The translations under genes were made by a program, and so were the position numbers. Source: a virus. From it: a DNA stretch of 5,731 nucleotides. Numbering within the stretch: position 1 is the stretch's first letter; each line of letters starts with the position of its first letter. Shown here piece after piece: positions 1 to 5,731 of the stretch. The notes beneath the pieces are model-generated. The model was not told the DNA's origin. It searched no databases and saw only the letters and a list, made by a program, of their open reading frames with translations. The stretch spans positions 1 through 5,731 of the IMG/VR virus record IMGVR_UViG_3300045988_001655. One strand, written 5' to 3'.

Positions 1-99
1 ATTTTTTTTTGAAAACCTTGAATTTTTTTAGAATTATAGTACAATAGAATCACAGAAAGGAAAGGTGAATACCATGTTACACTGCTACGAAGTACGAAA
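1..99. repeat. Terminal direct repeat, left copy. Bases 1-99 are identical to 5633-5731, so the window wraps a circular genome of about 5,632 bp.
   Basis: Direct reading: a, then T9, then gaaaaccttgaatttttttagaattatagtacaatagaatcacagaaaggaaaggtgaataccatgttacactgctacgaagtacgaaa occurs at 1-99 and again at 5633-5731 (offset 5632). Confidence 0.9.
18..45 (+). promoter_or_regulatory. Sigma70-like promoter for gene 1: -35 TTGAAT (18-23), 16-nt spacer, -10 TACAAT (40-45). It is flanked by T9 and T7 runs that could act as an UP element.
   Basis: Hexamers read directly. It is followed by RBS aaggaaagg and ATG at 74. An identical copy lies at 5650-5677. Confidence 0.45.
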
Positions 100-475: not shown

Positions 476-703
476 ATGGAGAAAAAACTATGGAATGTAA
501 GAGACCAGACCGACGAGAACCTTATACAGGAGTTAACGAAAATCCACAGGGGAATCGACGGCGTGTACAGTATGATCAGAAAGGCCGCAACAATCGAAGA
601 CGCAAAATATTACGTTGACCTTGTGTTTCGCAAGAAGGCGGCAGCAAACGAAATTGAGATGGAAATACTCAGGAGGGACATCAACCATGGCAAAGAGGAG
701 TAA
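476..703 (+). CDS. Small hypothetical protein of 75 aa. No recognised family.
   Basis: ORF track. GGAGG (465-469) lies 6 nt upstream of ATG 476. Its 3' end overlaps the next gene by 17 nt. Confidence 0.55.
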   Translation: MEKKLWNVRDQTDENLIQELTKIHRGIDGVYSMIRKAATIEDAKYYVDLVFRKKAAANEIEMEILRRDINHGKEE

Positions 704-1148: not shown

Positions 1149-1605
1149 TTTCAGAGAGACTGCAACAGCAAAGCCCACTGAGGCCGGAGAAACCATCAGA
1201 CGGACGTATCTTTGGGAAATCAACGAAAAGGGCGAAAAGGTGCTGACGCTTGACCAGACCATTGACCAGCAGGCAGAAATCGACAGCTACCTAGAAGAGA
1301 CCAAACTGGAAAACATCCTCAGGCGGGCATCCATTGATCCTGACATTGCAGCTAGACTGGTGCCGAACATGGGTGACGGGATCCAAGACGCAACCGGGAT
1401 GCCGGAGAATCTGATGCAGCTCCAGAACATCATGCTGCGGGCCGAGCAAATCTGGGATGAAATCCCAAAGGAAATCAAGCTCAAGTTTGACAATGACGTC
1501 GATAAATTCGTGGCAAGCTTCGGAACTATCGACTGGGCAAAAAATCTGGGCATTTATCAGGAAGAGCTGCCTGAAGAGCCTAAAAAGGAGGAAGCCGCTG
1601 AATGA
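1126..1605 (+). CDS. Acidic 159-aa protein immediately upstream of the capsid gene and translationally coupled to it. Putative internal scaffolding protein (VP3-like).
   Basis: ORF track 1099..1605, where 1099 is a TTG. ATG 1126 has AAGGAG (1111-1116) 9 nt upstream. The protein is rich in E/D, consistent with gokushovirus VP3 scaffolds. The stop TGA 1603-1605 overlaps the VP1 ATG (ATGA). Assignment is by size, charge and position only. Confidence 0.4.
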   Translation: MAYRSVSNFRETATAKPTEAGETIRRTYLWEINEKGEKVLTLDQTIDQQAEIDSYLEETKLENILRRASIDPDIAARLVPNMGDGIQDATGMPENLMQLQNIMLRAEQIWDEIPKEIKLKFDNDVDKFVASFGTIDWAKNLGIYQEELPEEPKKEEAAE

Positions 1606-3269
1606 ACAGAAATAAAGACGCAGGATTCAACCAGGTGCCGCGACTGGACATCACGCGAAGCCGCTTTAAGAGGCGGCAGGACGTAAAGCTCACGCTCAAT
1701 GCTGGACAGCTCATTCCGTTCTATGTGGACGAAGTGCTACCGGGCGACACCTTCAGCATCGACCAAGCCGCAATTATCCGTATGACAACGCCTATCTTCC
1801 CAGTTATGGACAACTGCCACATGGATATCTACTACTTCAACGTACCGTGCCGTATCATCTGGGAACATTTCAAACGGTTCATGGGCGAAAACGACTCCGG
1901 GCCGTGGGCACAGACTCAGGAGTATACCATTCCGCAGGTCAAAGTAACTGGCTCAACCGACAAGCCGGCACCGTACGAGGGAAGCATCATGGACTACATG
2001 GGCATTCCTACCAAGGTGAGCAAAGGAACTGACAGTACCTTCAGCGTTAACGCACTGCCGTTCAGAGCATACGCCATGATTTGGCAAGAGTGGTTCCGCG
2101 ACCAGAACGTGGACAATCCGGCAATCAACAAAACCACAGACGAAACAGTCAACTACACTGACGATGAGACAAAGGGTATGGACGCAACAAATCCTGACCT
2201 TGAATACATCCTACAAAACGCATACACCGGCGGCAGACCGCTGCCGGTGAATAAGTACCACGACTACTTCACATCGGCTTTACCTTCCCCTCAGAAAGCG
2301 GGAGAACCTGTAAAAATCCCTCTGGGAAATACCGCAAAAATATACGGATACTACAACAGCAACCCAGGCCATAAAGCACCAATCGACGGAGACGAATTAA
2401 CCATATACAACGGAAACCGTTCGGAAATAAACAAAGCGGATAGCATCGTTGGGCAACCCTCAAACTTAACGTACGAACCACTTCAACTGAGAGCAGATCT
2501 GTCAAGTGCAACATCTACAACCATCAATCAGCTGAGACAGGCTTTCCAGGTACAAAAGTACTACGAGCAGTTAGCACGCGGTGGCAGCCGCTACCGCGAG
2601 ATGATTTACTCGCTGTTTCATACCAAAATCAGCGATAAGACGGTACAAATTCCTGAATACCTGGGCGGCACACGCATTACTATCAACATGAGTCAGGTTA
2701 TCCAGACCAGCGGCACGACCACCGATAGTCCGCAGGGCAACGCAGCAGCAATAAGTGTTACGCCGTACAACGGGAACATGTTCACCAAGAGCTTCGAAGA
2801 GCATGGCTATGTTATCGGCGTGTGCTGCATCCGGCATGACCATACCTACCAGCAGGGCTTGGAACGCATGTGGAGCCGCAAAACAAATCTGGATTTTTAC
2901 TATCCGGTCTTTGCAAACCTGGGAGAGCAGGCCATCCTGAAAAAGGAGCTGTATCTCACTGGTACGGACACCGACGAACAGGCCTTTGGTTATCAGGAAG
3001 CATGGGCAGAGTACCGAATGAAGCCAAACCGCATCAGCGGCAAGTTCCGGTCGAATGCAGAAGGAACTCTGGACAGCTGGCACTACGGCGACAACTACGA
3101 AAAGGCTCCGAGCCTGAGCCAGGCATGGATGAAAGAGGGAGATTCCGAGATTCAGAGAACTCTGGCCAAAGACAACGAACCTCAGTTTATCATGGATACC
3201 GTCATAGACAATACGTCTGTAAGACCGATGCCAATGTACAGCATTCCGGGTCTCGTAGACCATCACTAA
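1602..3269 (+). CDS. VP1: Major capsid protein (Microviridae F / gokushovirus VP1), 555 aa.
   Basis: The N-terminal region has the FNQVPRLD...[16 protein letters not shown] motif typical of microvirus capsid proteins. The size is right. The central region (about residues 190-330) is hydrophilic and variable, like the gokushovirus insertion loop. AAGGAGG lies 9 nt upstream of ATG. Confidence 0.9.
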
Positions 3270-3310: not shown

Positions 3311-4177
3311 ATGGCATTAGCAGCAATCGGCAGCGCACTGCTCGGAATCGGCAAACAACTACTCCCAACAATCGCCGGAGGACTCATAAACAAATTCCTG
3401 GGTGGAAACCTAATGGAAAGCAATGGAGGGAGCAGTCAGCACAACGAAAGCTCAAGCCAGGGAGGCGGCTACAGCAGCGCCGCCAGCGGCGTAAACCGAG
3501 AACAGAACCTGCAAGACTGGAACAGTATGCTAGGGGCAATTCAAAACAATATGCAAAGCCAGCAGAAGTTTAACCGTCGGAGCATGTTCGAGCAAATGGG
3601 CTATAACACCATGGCGGCAATCACTCAGGGTGTATATAACCAGATAAGCAACAACGCAGCGATGGCCTACAACAGCGCAGAAGCAGCCAAAAACAGAGCT
3701 TGGCAAGAGCAAATGAGCAATACAGCTTATCAGCGAGCTGTAGAAGACATGAAAAAAGCTGGCATCAACCCTATCTTAGCATACCAACAAGGAGGAGCAA
3801 GCACGCCAGGAGGCGCACAAGCCACTATCAGTGGGGCAAGCATGGGACTCGCAAGCAGCAGTGCAGCGAACGCAAGCGCTCTCGGAGTAAGCCAGAATCA
3901 CAACAACACATGGAGCAAAAGCGAAAGCAACTGGTACAACGCGGCACAAGCGGTTGGAGACGCTACAAGCTGGTCTCACACAAGCGCAGACAAAGCGTTT
4001 AATGCATTCAAGGACGTCTTCAATGACCTCAGCAACCTAAACGGTGGCAACGGCGGCGTTGCAAACGCCAGCCAAGGTGCCGGGAGAAAACCGAAGAAAG
4101 ATGAAATCGAATACAGACCGGGAAAAGACTTCATCGGAAGCAAAAACGTCGAATTTTGGAAAGGAAAACTTAAATAA
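3311..4177 (+). CDS. VP2: DNA pilot / minor capsid protein (microvirus H / gokushovirus VP2), 288 aa.
   Basis: Hydrophobic N-terminus [25 protein letters not shown]. It has the conserved pilot-protein block [22 protein letters not shown] and a Q/N/S/G-rich low-complexity body. The ORF-track frame 2870..4177 overlaps VP1, so the first ATG after the VP1 stop (3311) is taken as the start. Confidence 0.8.
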
Positions 4178-5197
4178 ATGGGATGCAACAAACCATTAAT
4201 CCGGTTTTATGTACCTCATGATAGAGAGGCGAGTGGGCGAGTGTACTCACTCGCCTCTTTTAACAAGATTCATGAAACCAAAATACAGTATGAAGACCTG
4301 ATGTATCGCAAAGATGTAATGATGATACCATGCGGACAATGCACAGGATGCAAACTACGCAAGCGCAAAGACTGGGCAACACGAATGGAGCTGGAAGCAT
4401 ACAGCCACGACAAGGAAAGCATCTGGTTTATCACGTTAACCTATGATGACGACCACGTACCAACACAGGACACAGAAACAGGGGAAATCTTCAAGGGAGG
4501 CGTAAACGTATGGAGAGACGCCTCAGAGCGTCCCAGAACGGTGCAAACCTTAAGCGTAGAGGATGTCCAGTTATTCATGAAAAGGCTTAGAAAGGCCGTC
4601 AGCGGGCCTCTCAGATACTTCTTGGCCGGAGAGTATGGAGACAACACCTCAAGACCACACTATCACATGATACTATACGGATGGTATCCGGACAACTTAA
4701 AGCCAATTCACAGGCTGTCAAGGTTTGGACACTACACGAGTGATAAACTGGTCAAAGTCTGGGGACAAGGGACGGTTGACATAGCCCAGGCAACGCCGGA
4801 AACGTATAACTACGTAGCTGGATATGTGACCAAGAAGCTGTACGGAAACGACAAAGACAAGTACAAGAAAATGGGACTCATACCGCCATTCTGCATAATG
4901 AGCCGAAAGCCAGGACTCGGAGACGAATGGTTCCAAAAGAACCAAGAAAGGCTATGGCAACTTGGATACATCCAGCTGACAAACGGCAAAAGAGAAGCCA
5001 TTCCAGAATATTATTGGCGAAAGCTGGAAGCTGAAAATCCTGAAAAGGCGTGGAGAATCAAGCAGTATCGACAAGAAAAAGCCATTGCATCCCTAATCGA
5101 AAGAAACATGGAAACTGACAAACGGTATGCCGAACAACTGGCCGATAAAGAAGCAATAATGAAGAAGAAGATGTCCAAAGCAAAGGGCGTTTTTTAG
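4178..5197 (+). CDS. VP4: Rolling-circle replication initiation protein (microvirus A / gokushovirus VP4), 339 aa.
   Basis: HUH-endonuclease motifs are present: motif I FITLTY, motif II HYHMILYG, motif III YNYVAGYVTKK (two catalytic tyrosines, as in the phiX174 A protein). There is an N-terminal CGQCTGCK cysteine cluster. The start abuts the VP2 stop. Confidence 0.9.
   Translation: MGCNKPLIRFYVPHDREASGRVYSLASFNKIHETKIQYEDLMYRKDVMMIPCGQCTGCKLRKRKDWATRMELEAYSHDKESIWFITLTYDDDHVPTQDTETGEIFKGGVNVWRDASERPRTVQTLSVEDVQLFMKRLRKAVSGPLRYFLAGEYGDNTSRPHYHMILYGWYPDNLKPIHRLSRFGHYTSDKLVKVWGQGTVDIAQATPETYNYVAGYVTKKLYGNDKDKYKKMGLIPPFCIMSRKPGLGDEWFQKNQERLWQLGYIQLTNGKREAIPEYYWRKLEAENPEKAWRIKQYRQEKAIASLIERNMETDKRYAEQLADKEAIMKKKMSKAKGVF
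4225..4258. other. Perfect 11-bp inverted repeat inside the 5' end of the rep gene: AGAGGCGAGTG-(12 nt)-CACTCGCCTCT. GGCGAGTG is tandemly duplicated on the left arm.
   Basis: Arms at 4225-4235 and 4248-4258 are exact reverse complements. The loop ggcgagtgtact overlaps a second GGCGAGTG copy (4236-4243), so alternative pairing is possible. Confidence 0.7.
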
Positions 5198-5206
5198 CTC
5201 TGGTGT

Positions 5207-5263
5207 CACTCAGCCAAGTAACTATCAAGTACATATACTTGGCTGAGTGTTTTTTAGTTTTTT
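5207..5263 (+). terminator. Rho-independent terminator after rep: 14-bp perfect stem CACTCAGCCAAGTA / TACTTGGCTGAGTG with a 15-nt loop, followed by TTTTTTagTTTTTT.
   Basis: Arms at 5207-5220 and 5236-5249 are exact reverse complements. T-runs at 5250-5255 and 5258-5263. Confidence 0.75.
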
Positions 5264-5267
5264 ATCA

Positions 5268-5308
5268 GCGCACGCGCACGCGCACGTAATCGCGCACGTA
5301 CACGTGCG
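5268..5308. repeat. GC-rich alternating purine-pyrimidine island. (GCGCAC)x3 is tandem (5268-5285), with a fourth copy at 5292-5297, and a palindrome CGCACGT-ac-ACGTGCG at 5293-5308.
   Basis: Read directly. Strict Pu/Py alternation over 5268-5288 (21 bp) and 5291-5308 (18 bp). The island is flanked by T-runs on both sides. Confidence 0.8.
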
Positions 5309-5331
5309 ATTTTTATTATATTATTATTTAC

Positions 5332-5352
5332 TTGTTGTAGTAGTAGTAGTAG
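5332..5352. repeat. Trinucleotide microsatellite (TTG)2(TAG)5.
   Basis: ttgttgtagtagtagtagtag read directly. TAG units at 5338-5352. Confidence 0.85.
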
Positions 5353-5356
5353 GGAG

Positions 5357-5532
5357 TGTTGAAATGTTGAAAACTATGAATATCTATCCTTGGAACGATA
5401 TTTTGTAGTCAATTTTGATGTTGATAACTTTGTGGAAAACTTGTTGAATTGTTGAAAGTGTAGCAATATGCACAAAACCATTTGTGCAACTTTTTGTGGA
5501 AAACCTGTTGAAAGTGTTGAAAGTGTTGAAAA
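5357..5532 (+). promoter_or_regulatory. Iteron array of about 10 same-orientation copies of TGTTGAAA(R) in three clusters: 5357-5373, 5419-5458 and 5495-5532. It includes two TGTGGAAAA variants (5431-5439 and 5495-5503), a 21-bp direct repeat (5428-5448 and 5492-5512, 19/21 identical), and a perfect tandem TGTTGAAAG-TGTTGAAAG-TGTTGAAAA at 5506-5532.
   Basis: Copies read directly at 5357, 5365, 5419 (TGTTGATAA), 5431, 5442 (TGTTGAAT), 5450, 5495, 5506, 5515 and 5524. Confidence 0.8.
5469..5488. repeat. Palindrome TGCACAAA-acca-TTTGTGCA centred between the two 21-bp iteron repeat units.
   Basis: 8-bp arms are exact reverse complements with a 4-nt spacer. Confidence 0.8.
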
Positions 5533-5542
5533 TGTAATTAGA

Positions 5543-5611
5543 GGCAGCTCGGCAGCTGGCCGAAAGGTTACGTCATGCTCTTCGTACGGCGCACCGCGCC
5601 TAGCGCATGAC
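5543..5611. other. GC-rich structured block: direct repeat GGCAGCT-c-GGCAGCT (5543-5557), then nested inverted repeats GTCATGC (5572-5578) / GCATGAC (5605-5611) enclosing GGCGC-acc-GCGCC (5588-5600).
   Basis: Read directly. This is the only GC-rich segment of the AT-rich intergenic region apart from the GCGCAC island. Confidence 0.6.
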
Positions 5612-5632
5612 CTTCAATGCAAAATTCGTCTA

Positions 5633-5731
5633 ATTTTTTTTTGAAAACCTTGAATTTTTTTAGAATTATAGTACAATAGAATCACAGAAAGGAAAGGTGA
5701 ATACCATGTTACACTGCTACGAAGTACGAAA
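5633..5731. repeat. Terminal direct repeat, right copy (wrap-around of the circular genome). It contains a second copy of the gene-1 promoter and the first 26 nt of gene 1 (5706..5731).
   Basis: Exact match to 1-99. ATG at 5706 corresponds to ATG at 74. Confidence 0.9.

What the first reader, a model, noticed from the sequence alone, without database searches (positions are those of the whole stretch)
5357..5532. Dense iteron array with a central palindrome: candidate origin or operator
Ten same-orientation 8-9-mers (consensus TGTTGAAAR) lie within 176 bp. Two near-identical 21-bp units (TTTGTGGAAAAC[T/C]TGTTGAA) flank a perfect palindrome, TGCACAAAaccaTTTGTGCA. Iterons flanking a dyad are the classic architecture of replicon origins and of autoregulated operators. 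Known microviruses such as phiX174 place the (+) origin inside the rep gene and have short intergenic regions. A 500-bp repeat-laden non-coding module is therefore atypical. It may be a complementary-strand origin, a Rep or host-factor binding array, or a lysogeny/dormancy control region.
Basis: seen in the sequence. Interest (0 to 1): 0.75.

Follow-up and report, generated by a model that had tools for sequence, protein, structure and literature searches.

The report
Host-origin mimic in a gut microvirus
The repeat array in this small single-stranded-DNA gut phage appears to be a miniature copy of the chromosome replication origin of Ruminococcus-type bacteria, so the phage probably uses the host initiator protein DnaA on its own DNA, something not described for this virus family in the literature I could search.

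Summary
Six exact and four one-mismatch TGTTGAAA copies, all on the + strand, lie in 5357-5532 and nowhere else. The palindrome is at 5469-5488.

The array is the right-hand part of a larger module, about 5309-5532. Its order is: AT-rich tract, (TAG)5, a 4-nt gap, an 8-nt box, a 9-nt box, a 45-nt spacer, then eight more boxes. Order, orientation and spacing match the bacterial oriC "basal unwinding system" (DnaA boxes, DnaA-trios, unwinding element).

Nine dnaA-dnaN intergenic regions from Ruminococcus/Oscillospiraceae show a similar layout. Eight have TGTTGA- or TGTTTA-type boxes at the box-proximal position. All nine align collinearly with the module.

The module is the most conserved stretch of the genome. 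It is 91-95% identical in genomes whose capsid and Rep proteins are only about 50% and 42% identical. At least 152 distinct versions exist.

One large clade carries it inverted and at another position, and it has no excess single-strand structure. Both points favour action on the double-stranded replicative form.

Best reading: a host-DnaA-driven origin or unwinding cassette. Rep-specific iterons, a folded complementary-strand origin, a Spo0A array, coding sequence and structured RNA are all disfavoured. No DnaA binding or unwinding has been shown.

The parts
5207..5249 (+). Perfect 14-bp-arm hairpin followed by a T run, just after the VP4 stop. It looks like a terminator and lies outside the cassette.
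   Evidence: I2; present in both the MFE and the centroid fold.
5268..5308 (+). GC-rich alternating purine-pyrimidine tract, (GCGCAC)3 and following, forming an inverted repeat followed by a T run. It borders the AT-rich tract and is conserved in the module-bearing clades.
   Evidence: D3, I3; terminator-like 5288-5311.
5309..5337 (.). AT-rich tract (ATTTTTATTATATTATTATTTA) plus the conserved CTTGTTG. Candidate DNA unwinding element.
   Evidence: The least stable 30-mer duplexes of the whole genome start at 5307-5316 (dG -28 against a genome mean of -40.3, sd 3.4). The window 5301-5500 has the lowest GC in the genome. ACTTGTTG is near-invariant.
5338..5352 (+). (TAG)5, equivalent to five DnaA-trio motifs (3'-GAT-5').
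   Evidence: In all 65 distinct versions retrieved (the search pattern itself required three TAG here), the three box-proximal TAG are followed by a 4-nt gap and boxes at fixed spacing. The fourth trio varies freely. Trio definition.
5353..5356 (+). 4-nt gap (GGAG) between the trios and the first box.
   Evidence: In the 65 versions (the search pattern required a 4-nt gap) the gap sequence varies freely: GGAG, AGGT, GCAC, GGCC and others. With a looser pattern, some inverted-clade versions have a 3-nt gap. The B. subtilis gap is GGCC.
5357..5373 (+). Tandem box pair next to the trios: an 8-nt proximal box TGTTGAAA and a 9-nt distal box TGTTGAAAA.
   Evidence: Same 8 + 9 geometry and orientation as B. 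subtilis TGTGGATT-TGTGGATAA. This is the only BUS-like hit in the window, and 0 of 2000 shuffles gave one.
5374..5418 (+). 45-nt spacer, almost constant in length and variable in sequence, with a small hairpin at 5379-5402.
   Evidence: (centroid hairpin).
5419..5458 (+). First distal box cluster: TGTTGATAA (5419), TGTGGAAAA (5431), TGTTGAATT (5442), TGTTGAAAG (5450).
   Evidence: The box at 5431 reads TGTGGATAA (perfect DnaA box) in L024, L083, L117, L062 and L004, and TGTTGAAAA in other relatives.
5466..5488 (.). Palindrome TGCACAAA-ACCA-TTTGTGCA (5469-5488). Its left flank plus left arm reads ATATGCACA (5466-5474), which is one mismatch from a reverse-oriented DnaA box.
   Evidence: I12; 5466-5474, minus strand, 1 mismatch. 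Replaced by TTCGTCA-AAA-TGACGAA in clade B.
5495..5532 (+). Second distal box cluster: TGTGGAAAA (5495), TGTTGAAAG (5506), TGTTGAAAG (5515), TGTTGAAAA (5524).
   Evidence: Resembles the dnaA-proximal cluster of Ruminococcus oriC, TGTTGAAAAACC-TGTTGAAAA-TGTTGATAAC.
5539..5611 (+). GC-rich hairpins downstream of the array. Not part of the cassette. Candidate separate ssDNA or terminator element.
   Evidence: (I10). Absent next to the inverted cassette in L202.
5641..5677 (+). Sigma-70-like promoter candidates upstream of the first ORF (ATG at 5706, equivalent to position 74).
   Evidence: TTGAC and TA..AT elements are partly conserved.

Best explanation
The 'iterons' are DnaA boxes of the type used by Ruminococcus/Oscillospiraceae. 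Together with the adjacent (TAG)5 DnaA-trios, the 4-nt gap and the AT-rich tract (about 5309-5532), they form a compact copy or mimic of the host chromosome's dnaA-dnaN origin (incC/oriC2, the 'basal unwinding system').

**Proposed mechanism, acting on the double-stranded replicative form:**
1. Host DnaA-ATP binds the ten same-oriented boxes through its domain IV.
2. The pair next to the trios (5357-5373) directs a DnaA oligomer onto the TAG-repeat strand.
3. This stretches and opens the duplex at the trios and at the least stable AT-rich tract (5309-5337).
4. The host helicase loader, helicase and primase can then enter.

The phage would thereby gain DnaA-dependent initiation of replicative-form replication, either theta-type or as a priming/opening step that feeds Rep-driven rolling-circle replication.

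**Shown here:** the sequence architecture, its conservation, its independence from orientation, and its collinear similarity to real Ruminococcus-type oriC regions.

**Inferred, not shown:** DnaA binding, unwinding, helicase loading, and what this does to the phage life cycle.
For: **1. Architecture.** Read 5'->3' on the + strand, the module is: AT-rich tract, (TAG)5, GGAG, TGTTGAAA (8 nt), TGTTGAAAA (9 nt).
- The published BUS of B. subtilis, read on the same strand, is: AT-rich, TAGTAGAAGTAATAGTAG, GGCC, TGTGGATT (8), TGTGGATAA (9). S. aureus is the same kind.
- Order, box orientation, the 4-nt gap, the 8-nt proximal box and the spacer of 12 are identical.
- The published search criteria are met: boxes with <=2 and <=4 mismatches, spacer <=16, at least 3 trios with a central A.
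- 0 of 2000 dinucleotide shuffles of the genome give any such arrangement.

**2. Unwinding element.** The least stable 30-mer duplex of the whole genome abuts the trios.

**3. Real host-type origins look the same.**
- L359 is a dnaA-dnaN-recF-gyrB locus. Its DnaA is 93% identical to a 'Ruminococcus sp.' DnaA.
- Its dnaA-dnaN spacer reads: TTG, (TAG)5, TGTG, TGTTGATT, TTGTTGGAA ... TGTTGAATTGTT ... CAACTTTTTG ... TGTTGAAAAACCTGTTGAAAATGTTGATAAC.
- Eight more Ruminococcus, Hominimerdicola or Oscillospiraceae oriC regions show TAG/TAT trios and a 4-nt gap. Seven of them follow this with a TGTTGA- or TGTTTA-type box; L392 (Ruminococcus sp. Marseille-P6503) has no clear proximal box.
- Local alignments of the module to these spacers score z = 4.2-8.2 above dinucleotide shuffles for L386-L389. 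L359 and L390-L393 also scored well above simple base-order shuffles. Scores on the opposite strand, and against the upstream spacer where tested, were at background.
- Pelliciari's table lists AAAAGTTGT-CCA-AAAAGTTGT (equivalent to TGTTGAAAA x2) for R. albus 7.

**4. Box identity.**
- At one and the same position, relatives carry TGTGGATAA (perfect consensus), TGTGGAAAA or TGTTGAAAA.
- Of 1410 boxes in 152 distinct modules, 168 are perfect TGTGNAWAA.
- In unrelated viral contigs, TGTTGAAAA sits in same-orientation arrays with perfect TGTGGATAA/TTATCCACA.
- Ruminococcus DnaA has NKNHSTMTIHY where the canonical proteins have GGRDHTTVIHA (the canonical motif is from my own knowledge).

**5. Constraint.**
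- The module is the nucleotide-identity peak of the genome: 0.79-0.99 against 0.48-0.54 overall.
- It is 91-95% identical in genomes with VP1 about 50% and VP4 about 42% identical.
- The gap sequence varies freely while its length stays at 3-4 nt and the distance from the last TAG to the distal box stays at 12-13 nt.

**6. Action on dsDNA.** A large clade carries the cassette inverted and moved to between VP2 and VP4. The module has no excess ssDNA structure.

**7. Host.** Gut gokushoviruses are predicted to infect Clostridiales (PMC10159846).
Against: - No experiment shows DnaA binding or unwinding. No host is known for this virus, and that TGTTGAWAA is the Ruminococcus DnaA box is itself an inference from oriC context.
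- TGTTGAAAA departs from the classical consensus at a normally conserved position (C6 of TTATCCACA). With the generic consensus and up to 1 mismatch, the genome as a whole is not enriched (13 found against 10.8 expected). Only the clustering is striking.
- Box periods of 8-9 bp are tighter than in most characterised DnaA-box arrays.
- The fourth trio often loses its central A (TCG, CCG, ACG).
- In clade B the AT-rich tract is short, about 12-14 nt.
- Microviruses are thought to need only Rep-driven rolling-circle replication plus host priming, so why a theta-type origin would be needed is unexplained.
- About 50 of 51 more distant relatives lack the module, so it is not essential to the family.
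- The similarity to bacterial oriC could be inherited from a capture event without the unwinding function being retained.
Confidence: 0.65

Rival explanations
1. DnaA sink or regulatory array. The boxes bind host DnaA not to fire an origin but to titrate it, shutting down host chromosome initiation as multicopy DnaA-box 'inc' regions do in B. subtilis. Alternatively they couple the nearby phage promoter to the host's DnaA-ATP level.
For: There are ten boxes per genome copy, so a high-copy replicative form would be a strong sink. The array lies 110-350 nt upstream of the main promoter candidates. Box identity rests on the same evidence as the main explanation. The inc/datA titration phenomenon is from my own knowledge.
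Against: A sink needs only boxes. Yet the trios, the 3-4-nt gap, the 12-13-nt trio-to-distal-box spacing and the adjoining least-stable AT tract are conserved. The cassette keeps its internal order when inverted and moved away from that promoter.
Confidence: 0.15
2. Rep (VP4)-binding iterons of the viral (+)-strand origin, with the nick site in or beside the AT-rich/ACTTGTTG segment.
For: Same-orientation iterons beside an AT-rich tract are typical of Rep-dependent origins. ACTTG recalls the phiX174/pC194 nick motif CTTG^ATA (own knowledge), and ACTTGTTG is near-invariant in the module. No other origin candidate was identified, and there is no phiX-like origin in the window.
Against: - The module is 91-95% identical where VP4 is about 42% identical, which is unlike co-evolving Rep-iteron pairs.
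- ACTTGTTG is absent from module-lacking relatives that have related VP4 (3 of 51).
- Inversion of the cassette in a whole clade would flip the strand that is nicked and packaged.
- The same boxes and layout occur in bacterial dnaA-dnaN spacers that have no VP4.
Confidence: 0.08
3. Complementary-strand (SS->RF) origin read on the packaged single strand. For example, DnaA assembling on the single-stranded TAG trios, or an 'A-site'-type DnaA-dependent primosome at the palindrome hairpin.
For: In the window's clade the packaged (+) strand is the trio strand (93 of 94 contigs). DnaA-trios are ssDNA-binding motifs. The palindrome can form a hairpin. DnaA-dependent priming at a hairpin carrying a DnaA box is known from plasmid R6K (own knowledge).
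Against: - The module folds no better than shuffles (z = -0.03).
- The boxes would be single-stranded in the virion, whereas DnaA domain IV needs duplex boxes.
- A large clade has the complementary strand packaged relative to the module.
- The palindrome sequence is not conserved.
- Separate structured hairpins flank the module and are better candidates for that role.
Confidence: 0.07
4. Binding array for a different factor (Spo0A '0A boxes', another response regulator, or an unidentified phage protein), with the resemblance to oriC being coincidental.
For: TGTTGAA is one mismatch from the 0A box TGTCGAA (own knowledge). The small ORF 476-703 is more frequent in module-bearing contigs (77/96 against 12/71).
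Against: - C never occurs at box position 4 in 1410 boxes, although the search would have admitted it.
- The trio/gap/box geometry and the collinearity with nine bacterial oriC regions are not explained by this reading.
- No ORF co-occurs strictly with the module.
Confidence: 0.04
5. Not a DNA signal at all: a small protein gene (ORF 5468-5644 or 5247-5408), a structured RNA, or a chance or assembly artefact.
For: ORFs of 58 and 53 aa overlap the region. One GenBank relative annotates a 'hypothetical protein' there.
Against: - The conserved iterons fall in different reading frames in different clades, and indels are not multiples of three.
- There are no Pfam hits and no Rfam hit, and no excess structure.
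Confidence: 0.01

Closest known systems
Bacterial chromosomal origin 'basal unwinding system' (BUS): DnaA-box pair, DnaA-trios and AT-rich DUE, as in B. subtilis incC (Richardson 2016/2019; Pelliciari 2021, PMC8287927; PMC6669920; PMC10721633)
   Same: Same elements, in the same order and relative orientation. The gap is 4 nt and the proximal box 8 nt, giving a spacer of 12 (12-13 across the viral versions). There are at least 3 TAG trios, an AT-rich tract beyond the trios, and additional distal boxes.
   Different: It sits in a 5.6-kb ssDNA-phage genome, not next to dnaA. The boxes are mostly TGTTGAAAA rather than TGTGGATAA. The module is compact, about 225 bp. DnaA binding and unwinding are untested.
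dnaA-dnaN intergenic oriC of Ruminococcus/Oscillospiraceae
   Same: TGTTGA-type boxes, TAG/TAT trios and a 4-nt gap. The blocks are collinear: TGTTGAATTGTT, CAACTTTTTG and a terminal triple box cluster. Alignment z = 4.2-8.2, on the trio strand only.
   Different: The bacterial regions are 386-634 bp with more degenerate boxes. The viral version is shorter, with more regular boxes and a palindrome. L392 has no clear proximal box. Whether the similarity reflects capture or convergence is not resolved.
Theta-type plasmid and phage origins that combine element-specific iterons with DnaA boxes and an AT-rich region (pSC101, F, P1 oriR, RK2; own knowledge; review PMC4980987)
   Same: Direct repeats plus DnaA boxes plus an AT-rich opening region on a small mobile replicon.
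   Different: Those origins depend on an element-encoded Rep that binds the iterons. Here the repeats themselves are DnaA-box-like, chromosome-type trios are present, and there is no theta-type initiator gene. The only Rep is an HUH rolling-circle protein.
Microvirus origins: the phiX174 (+) origin inside gene A, the phiX174 n'/PriA assembly hairpin, and the G4 primase origin (own knowledge; PMC9865509 section 3.8)
   Same: Non-coding cis-elements through which a microvirus recruits host replication factors.
   Different: There is no phiX-like origin sequence in the window. The known complementary-strand origins are folded ssDNA hairpins, whereas this module is unstructured, works in either orientation, and resembles a duplex origin.
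DnaA-titrating box clusters (E. coli datA; B. subtilis 'inc' DnaA-box regions; own knowledge)
   Same: A dense cluster of DnaA boxes outside the functional chromosomal origin.
   Different: Those clusters lack the trio/gap/DUE arrangement that is conserved here.

Membership tests
oriC basal unwinding system (BUS) | A DnaA box (<=2 mismatches), optionally paired with a second box (<=4 mismatches), next to the trios | tested here: met
   TGTTGAAAA has 2 mismatches and TGTTGAAAT has 3 mismatches to TGTGGATAA. Criteria. Relatives carry TGTGGAAA or AGTGGAAA at the same place.
oriC basal unwinding system (BUS) | Box orientation relative to the trio strand: 5'-(TAG)n-gap-TGTGGATAA-type box | tested here: met
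   Same as B. subtilis, S. aureus, Listeria and others in Table S1 when read 5'->3' on the trio strand. Reversing the boxes inactivates B. subtilis incC.
oriC basal unwinding system (BUS) | At least 3 consecutive trios with a central A (consensus 3'-GAT-5') | tested here: met
   (TAG)5 at 5338-5352. Three box-proximal TAG precede the gap and boxes in all 65 versions retrieved, though the search pattern required them. L145 has TAG GAG AAG TAG TAG.
oriC basal unwinding system (BUS) | Spacer of <=16 bp between the better box and the first trio (modal 13; 12 in Bacillales), with a gap of about 4 bp | tested here: met
   The spacer is 12 in the window (4 + 8) and 12-13 in the versions examined, including the inverted clade.
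oriC basal unwinding system (BUS) | AT-rich unwinding element on the far side of the trios | tested here: met
   The least stable 30-mers of the genome start at 5307-5316. The tract is shorter in clade B.
oriC basal unwinding system (BUS) | DnaA-ATP binds the boxes, oligomerises on the trios and separates the strands | not testable with these tools
   Needs EMSA or footprinting and strand-separation assays with the host's DnaA.
oriC basal unwinding system (BUS) | It is the chromosomal origin, usually beside dnaA | tested here: not met
   The window is a microvirus genome with VP1-VP5 genes and no dnaA. It is therefore a BUS-like module on a virus, not an oriC.
Rep-iteron origins of plasmids and CRESS/RCR elements | Iterons are bound by the element's own initiator and co-vary with it | tested here: not met
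   The module is 91-95% identical with VP4 at about 42% identity. No ORF co-occurs strictly with it. The same repeats occur in bacterial oriC.
Single-strand origins (sso of RCR plasmids; phiX n' site; G4/M13 minus-strand origins) | Extensive, conserved intrastrand structure on the displaced or packaged strand, with strict strand specificity | tested here: not met
   z = -0.03 for 5309-5535. The cassette occurs in both orientations relative to the genes.
phiX174-type (+) origin | The conserved 30-nt origin core CAACTTG^ATATTAATAAC | tested here: not met
   No match with up to 3 mismatches.
Spo0A 0A-box arrays | TGTCGAA (TGNCGAA) boxes | tested here: not met
   Position 4 is T in 86%, G in 14% and C in 0% of 1410 boxes.
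Rfam RNA families | A match to a curated covariance model | tested here: not met
   The only hit in the window is a sub-threshold osmY match at 4044-4112.

The most novel reading that the evidence does not exclude
Two large clades of gut gokushoviruses have captured, and keep under strong selection, a miniature chromosomal origin of their Oscillospiraceae (Ruminococcus-type) hosts. Their double-stranded replicative form is then fired by host DnaA like a minichromosome. This would give an ssDNA rolling-circle phage a second, theta-type, cell-cycle-coupled replication mode, and so a plasmid-like carrier state without integration. The box type would also serve as a sequence signature for predicting the host.
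Probability: 0.35. Interest if true: 0.92.

Novelty: new variant of a known kind. Interest (0 to 1): 0.85.

Why it matters
**For microvirus biology.** Microviruses are among the most abundant gut viruses (52% mean relative abundance in infant viromes, PMC10159846), yet almost none has a cultured host and their replication signals outside phiX-like phages are unknown. If this module works as the sequence suggests:
- It identifies a cis-acting replication element for a large group of gut gokushoviruses.
- It shows an ssDNA rolling-circle phage using the host's chromosomal initiator through a chromosome-type unwinding module. I found no description of this in full-text searches.
- It offers a mechanism for long-term, non-integrative persistence, or for shutting down host initiation.
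- It gives a direct, testable host prediction (Ruminococcus/Oscillospiraceae) from non-coding sequence.

**For origin biology.** It is a natural, minimised BUS, about 225 bp and with at least 152 sequence variants. These variants show which positions tolerate change: the gap sequence and the fourth trio do, while the gap length and trio-to-box spacing stay within one nucleotide. It also points to a DnaA-box variant (TGTTGAWAA) in bacteria whose DnaA has an unusual DNA-binding motif.

Tried and rejected
- **Prophage or host search with VP4 in GTDB genomes.** No relative found. The DNA-pattern scan found only two microvirus-sized contigs, binned into a Prevotella MAG and a Ruminococcus MAG. These conflict, so they are weak host evidence.
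- **Rfam, whole window, permissive thresholds.** Nothing in the region.
- **Coding hypothesis.** No Pfam hits for ORFs 5247-5408 or 5468-5644, and reading frames are not conserved.
- **ssDNA or RNA structure of the module.** No excess stability. Only the flanks are structured.
- **Spo0A 0A-box idea.** Rejected: C never occurs at position 4.
- **phiX-like origin.** Absent.
- **ACTTGTTG as a family-wide Rep nick site.** Not shared by module-lacking relatives. The widely shared 10-mers there are coding motifs.
- **A strictly co-occurring phage protein as iteron binder.** None found. ORF 476-703 is only enriched.
- **dif/Xer site.** I considered whether the region holds a dif/Xer site, as in enterobacterial gokushovirus prophages. 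Reading the sequence by eye, I saw no dif-like 28-mer. This was not tested formally.
- **A BUS-like module with canonical boxes in 51 more distant VP1 relatives.** Only a diverged copy in L145 and one spurious hit.
- **Regex search for canonical DnaA motifs in the metagenome loci.** It failed because Ruminococcus DnaA lacks the RDHTTV motif. Pfam then identified dnaA.
- **Neighbours of the box clusters in dsDNA-phage-like contigs L046, L090 and L100.** No dnaA or replication gene recognised.
- **Literature searches** for iterons, DnaA boxes or trios in microviruses or gokushoviruses returned nothing relevant.
Full report
**1. What the window is**

The window is a circular gokushovirus-type microvirus genome of 5632 nt. 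Positions 1-99 are repeated at 5633-5731. All genes are on the + strand:
- small ORFs at 74-265, 476-703 and 687-806;
- VP5 at 912-1148, VP3 at 1129-1605, VP1 at 1602-3269, VP2 at 3311-4177;
- the HUH Rep, VP4, at 4178-5197.

The finding lies in the one long non-coding region, 5198-5705 (508 nt).

**2.

- TGTTGAAA occurs exactly six times, and four one-mismatch copies lie beside them. All ten are on the + strand within 5357-5532, and there is no exact copy elsewhere.
- The relaxed form TGTKGAWA occurs nine times in one cluster. Shuffles gave a mean of 0.4 and never more than two in a cluster.
- The palindrome TGCACAAA-ACCA-TTTGTGCA is at 5469-5488, and the two TTTGTGGAAAAC[T/C]TGTTGAA units start at 5429 and 5493.
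- The units are 20 nt long as written, not 21.

**3. The region is conserved far beyond its surroundings**

- 47 GenBank microviruses from human, pig, monkey and other faeces match the non-coding region. In several of them it is the only part of the genome that megablast detects.
- An IMG/VR pattern scan and protein-anchored searches brought the total to 165 module-bearing contigs with 152 distinct sequences.
- Contigs whose VP1 is about 50% and VP4 about 42% identical in protein to the window carry a 216-nt core that is 91-95% identical in nucleotides.
- In whole-genome pairwise alignments the 100-nt windows with the highest identity are always inside 5312-5512: 0.79-0.99, against 0.48-0.54 genome-wide.
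Box number, spacing and orientation are kept across clades.

**4.

Immediately to the left of the first two repeats the + strand reads:

ATTTTTATTATATTATTATTTA-CTTGTTG-(TAG)5-GGAG-TGTTGAAA-TGTTGAAAA (5309-5373)

This is the layout of the bacterial oriC 'basal unwinding system' (BUS). In a BUS, a pair of DnaA boxes guides DnaA onto adjacent single-strand-binding DnaA-trios (3'-GAT-5', which is 5'-TAG-3'), next to an AT-rich unwinding element.

Pelliciari's Table S1 writes BUS sequences 3'->5' on the trio strand. Reversed to 5'->3':
- B. subtilis: AT-rich, TAGTAGAAGTAATAGTAG, GGCC, TGTGGATT, TGTGGATAA.
- S. aureus: TAGTAATAGTAGTAG, GTGC, TGTGGATT, GGTGGATAA.

The window has the same order and the same box orientation. 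It also has the same 4-nt gap, the same 8-nt proximal box followed by a 9-nt box, and the same spacer of 12.

It passes the published search criteria. My implementation of those criteria finds exactly one hit in the window, and none in 2000 dinucleotide shuffles. The least stable 30-mer duplex of the whole genome starts at 5307-5316, directly beyond the trios.

**5. The pattern of variation fits a spacing-dependent protein-DNA machine**

- In the 65 distinct versions of this segment from the first set, the pattern used to find them required three box-proximal TAG and a 4-nt gap. Within those, the gap sequence varies freely (GGAG, AGGT, GCAC, GGCC and others) and the fourth trio varies freely.
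- The proximal box alternates among TGTTGAAA, TGTGGAAA and AGTGGAAA.
- In the inverted clade the gap-plus-box arithmetic changes (3 + 9 or 4 + 9), but the distance from the last TAG to the distal box stays at 12-13.
- A diverged relative, L145, keeps TAG GAG AAG TAG TAG - AGAC - AGTTTAAA - AGTTGAAAA, retaining the central A of every trio.

**6. Are the repeats DnaA boxes?**

Four lines of evidence say probably yes.

(a) At one aligned position (5431) relatives carry TGTGGATAA (the perfect consensus), TGTGGAAAA or TGTTGAAAA. At 5419 they carry TGTTGATAA or TGTTGAAAA. Among 1410 boxes, 168 are perfect matches to TGTGNAWAA, including 42 TGTGGATAA.

(b) In unrelated, larger viral contigs (L090, L100), TGTTGAAAA sits in same-orientation arrays together with perfect TGTGGATAA/TTATCCACA boxes.

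(c) Real chromosomal origins use these boxes.
- Table S1 lists TGTTGAAAA-ACC-TGTTGAAAA for Ruminococcus albus 7, and a TGTTGAAA box next to the trios for Butyrivibrio.
- A metagenome scan with the R. albus motif recovered L359, a dnaA-dnaN-recF-gyrB locus. Its DnaA is 93% identical to a 'Ruminococcus sp.' protein.
- Its dnaA-dnaN spacer, read on the trio strand, is: AT-rich, TTG, (TAG)5, TGTG, TGTTGATT, TTGTTGGAA ... TGTTGAATTGTT ... CAACTTTTTG ... TGTTGAAAAACCTGTTGAAAATGTTGATAAC.
- Eight further origins were fetched through DnaA homologues: Ruminococcus spp., Hominimerdicola, and an Oscillospiraceae MAG. All show TAG/TAT trios and a 4-nt gap. Seven follow this with a TGTTGA- or TGTTTA-type box, while L392 has no clear proximal box. 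L393 reads (TAG)5-AGGG-TGTTGAAAA.

(d) These bacteria's DnaA reads ...NKNHSTMTIHY... where E. coli and B. subtilis have ...GGRDHTTV(L/I)HA..., the segment that makes base contacts (the canonical motif and its role are from my own knowledge). This offers a rationale for a shifted box preference.

**7. The whole module is collinear with those origins**

- Local alignment of 5309-5535 to the bacterial spacers gave scores of 56-91, against shuffle means of 26-42.
- Scores for L386-L389 were z = 4.2-8.2 above dinucleotide shuffles. L359 and L390-L393 scored 4.4-8.9 sd above simple base-order shuffles.
- Scores were at background for the opposite strand, and for the upstream rnpA/rpmH-dnaA spacer where that was tested.
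- The shared blocks, in order, are: the trio/box unit, TGTTGAATTGTT, CAACTTTTTG, and the terminal cluster ...GAAAACC-TGTTGAAA(A/G)-TGTTGA...
- The viral module therefore looks like a shortened, regularised version (about 225 bp against 386-634 bp) of an Oscillospiraceae-type incC/oriC2.
- Whether this reflects capture or convergence is not resolved.
- Gut gokushoviruses are independently predicted to infect Clostridiales (PMC10159846). The strong Shine-Dalgarno sequences in the window also fit a Firmicute host.

**8. On which form of the DNA does it act?**

- In the window's clade the trio strand is the coding, packaged strand in 93 of 94 contigs.
- A second large clade (L202 and about 65 relatives, found through L202's VP2) carries the cassette inverted and relocated between VP2 and VP4. 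There, 5-12 boxes lie on the strand opposite the genes, against 0-5 on the gene strand.
- The module has no more single-strand structure than shuffled sequence (z = -0.03). Only the flanks are structured: hairpins at 5207-5249, 5268-5308 and 5539-5611.
- Together these points argue for action on the duplex replicative form. They argue against a folded complementary-strand origin read on virion DNA.

**9. Against Rep-specific iterons and other rivals**

- The module is nearly identical across VP4 proteins that share about 42% identity.
- No phage ORF co-occurs strictly with it.
- ACTTGTTG is not found in module-lacking relatives.
- The same repeats and layout occur in bacterial chromosomes.
- A Spo0A array is excluded by the complete absence of C at box position 4.
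- Coding and RNA explanations fail on frame inconsistency, indels, and the absence of Pfam or Rfam matches.
- A pure DnaA sink remains possible, but it does not explain the conserved trio/gap/DUE geometry.

**10. Mechanism, with its status**

*Shown:* the architecture, the conservation, the orientation independence, and the similarity to real origins.

*Inferred:* host DnaA-ATP occupies the ten boxes. The 5357-5373 pair nucleates an oligomer on the TAG strand. The duplex opens at 5309-5352. Host helicase and primase are then loaded, giving DnaA-dependent initiation on the replicative form. This could be theta-type amplification or maintenance, or an opening or priming step that assists VP4-driven rolling-circle replication.

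Confidence: about 0.85 that this is a DnaA-targeted oriC-like module, and about 0.5-0.6 that it actually fires as an origin or unwinding element.

**11. Limits**

- About 50 of 51 more distant VP1 relatives (43-47% identity) lack the module. It is therefore a clade-specific cassette, not a family-wide requirement.
- The boxes differ from the classical consensus at a normally conserved position, and the genome is not globally enriched for the generic consensus.
- Box periods of 8-9 bp are unusually tight.
- The role of the palindrome is unknown. Its sequence differs between clades, and it was not apparent by eye in L202.
- No host, no binding data and no replication data exist.

**12. Novelty**

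Full-text searches returned nothing relevant for iterons, DnaA boxes, DnaA-trios or oriC-like elements in microviruses or gokushoviruses. The element type, BUS/oriC, is well known. Its presence as a conserved, mobile cassette in an ssDNA rolling-circle phage appears to be undescribed, so I rate it a new variant of a known kind, of high interest.

Noticed in passing
window 1-99 and 5633-5731: The two ends of the window are identical over 99 nt. The window is therefore a circular 5632-nt genome, and the non-coding region continues to the ATG at 74 (equivalent to 5706).
   Followed up: yes
window 5268-5308: A perfectly alternating purine-pyrimidine GC tract, (GCGCAC)3 and following, forms an inverted repeat followed by a T run. 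A similar tract sits just outside the AT-rich end of the module in the other clades (for example L145 and L245). It could be a terminator or insulator, a GC clamp limiting unwinding, or a Z-DNA/cruciform-prone element.
   Followed up: partly
window 5539-5611: GC-rich hairpins with a conserved core (TACGGCGCACCGCGCCTAGCGCATGAC). They are conserved in two clades and partly in a third, but are not carried along with the inverted cassette. They are a better candidate than the array for a folded ssDNA signal such as a complementary-strand origin or a terminator.
   Followed up: partly
L202, L204-L273 (IMG/VR): A large gokushovirus clade has the whole cassette inverted relative to the genes and placed between VP2 and VP4, with the AT-rich end facing the VP4 start. 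L228 and L241 carry partial internal duplications of the cassette.
   Followed up: partly
L090 ~3810-3950; L100 ~9700-9850; L046/L114; L056: Larger, unrelated viral contigs have intergenic same-orientation arrays that mix TGTTGAAAA, TGTGGAAAA and perfect TGTGGATAA/TTATCCACA boxes. No dnaA or recognisable replication gene was found next to those examined (L046, L090, L100).
   Followed up: partly
L284, L293, L328, L331, L333, L353, L377 (metagenome contigs): Tandem arrays of TGTTGAAAAACC-type units, up to 16 box-like 9-mers with a 12- or 24-nt period, occur in marine, freshwater and gut contigs of unknown nature.
   Followed up: no
P0001, P0004, P0009, P0023, P0114 (Ruminococcus DnaA), C-terminal domain: The DNA-binding domain reads ...NKNHSTMTIHY... 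in place of the canonical ...GGRDHTTV(L/I)HA... of E. coli and B. subtilis. This may underlie a shifted DnaA-box preference (TGTTGAWAA) in these bacteria.
   Followed up: partly
window 476-703: A 75-aa ORF with a weak, sub-threshold DUF7777 match is detectable in 77 of 96 module-bearing contigs but only 12 of 71 module-lacking ones. This is probably a phylogenetic effect, though a link to the module is not excluded.
   Followed up: partly
window 5374-5418: The spacer between the trio-proximal box pair and the distal boxes keeps its length (45 nt) in nearly all versions, while its sequence differs between clades. It usually contains an A(A/T)CG motif and a small hairpin (5379-5402 in the window).
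   Followed up: partly
L122 (Prevotella MAG) and L123 (Ruminococcus MAG), GTDB genome contigs: The only two GTDB hits to the module are short contigs (5.8 kb and 3.2 kb), at most microvirus-sized, binned into MAGs of two unrelated genera. This looks like a binning artefact rather than host evidence.
   Followed up: no
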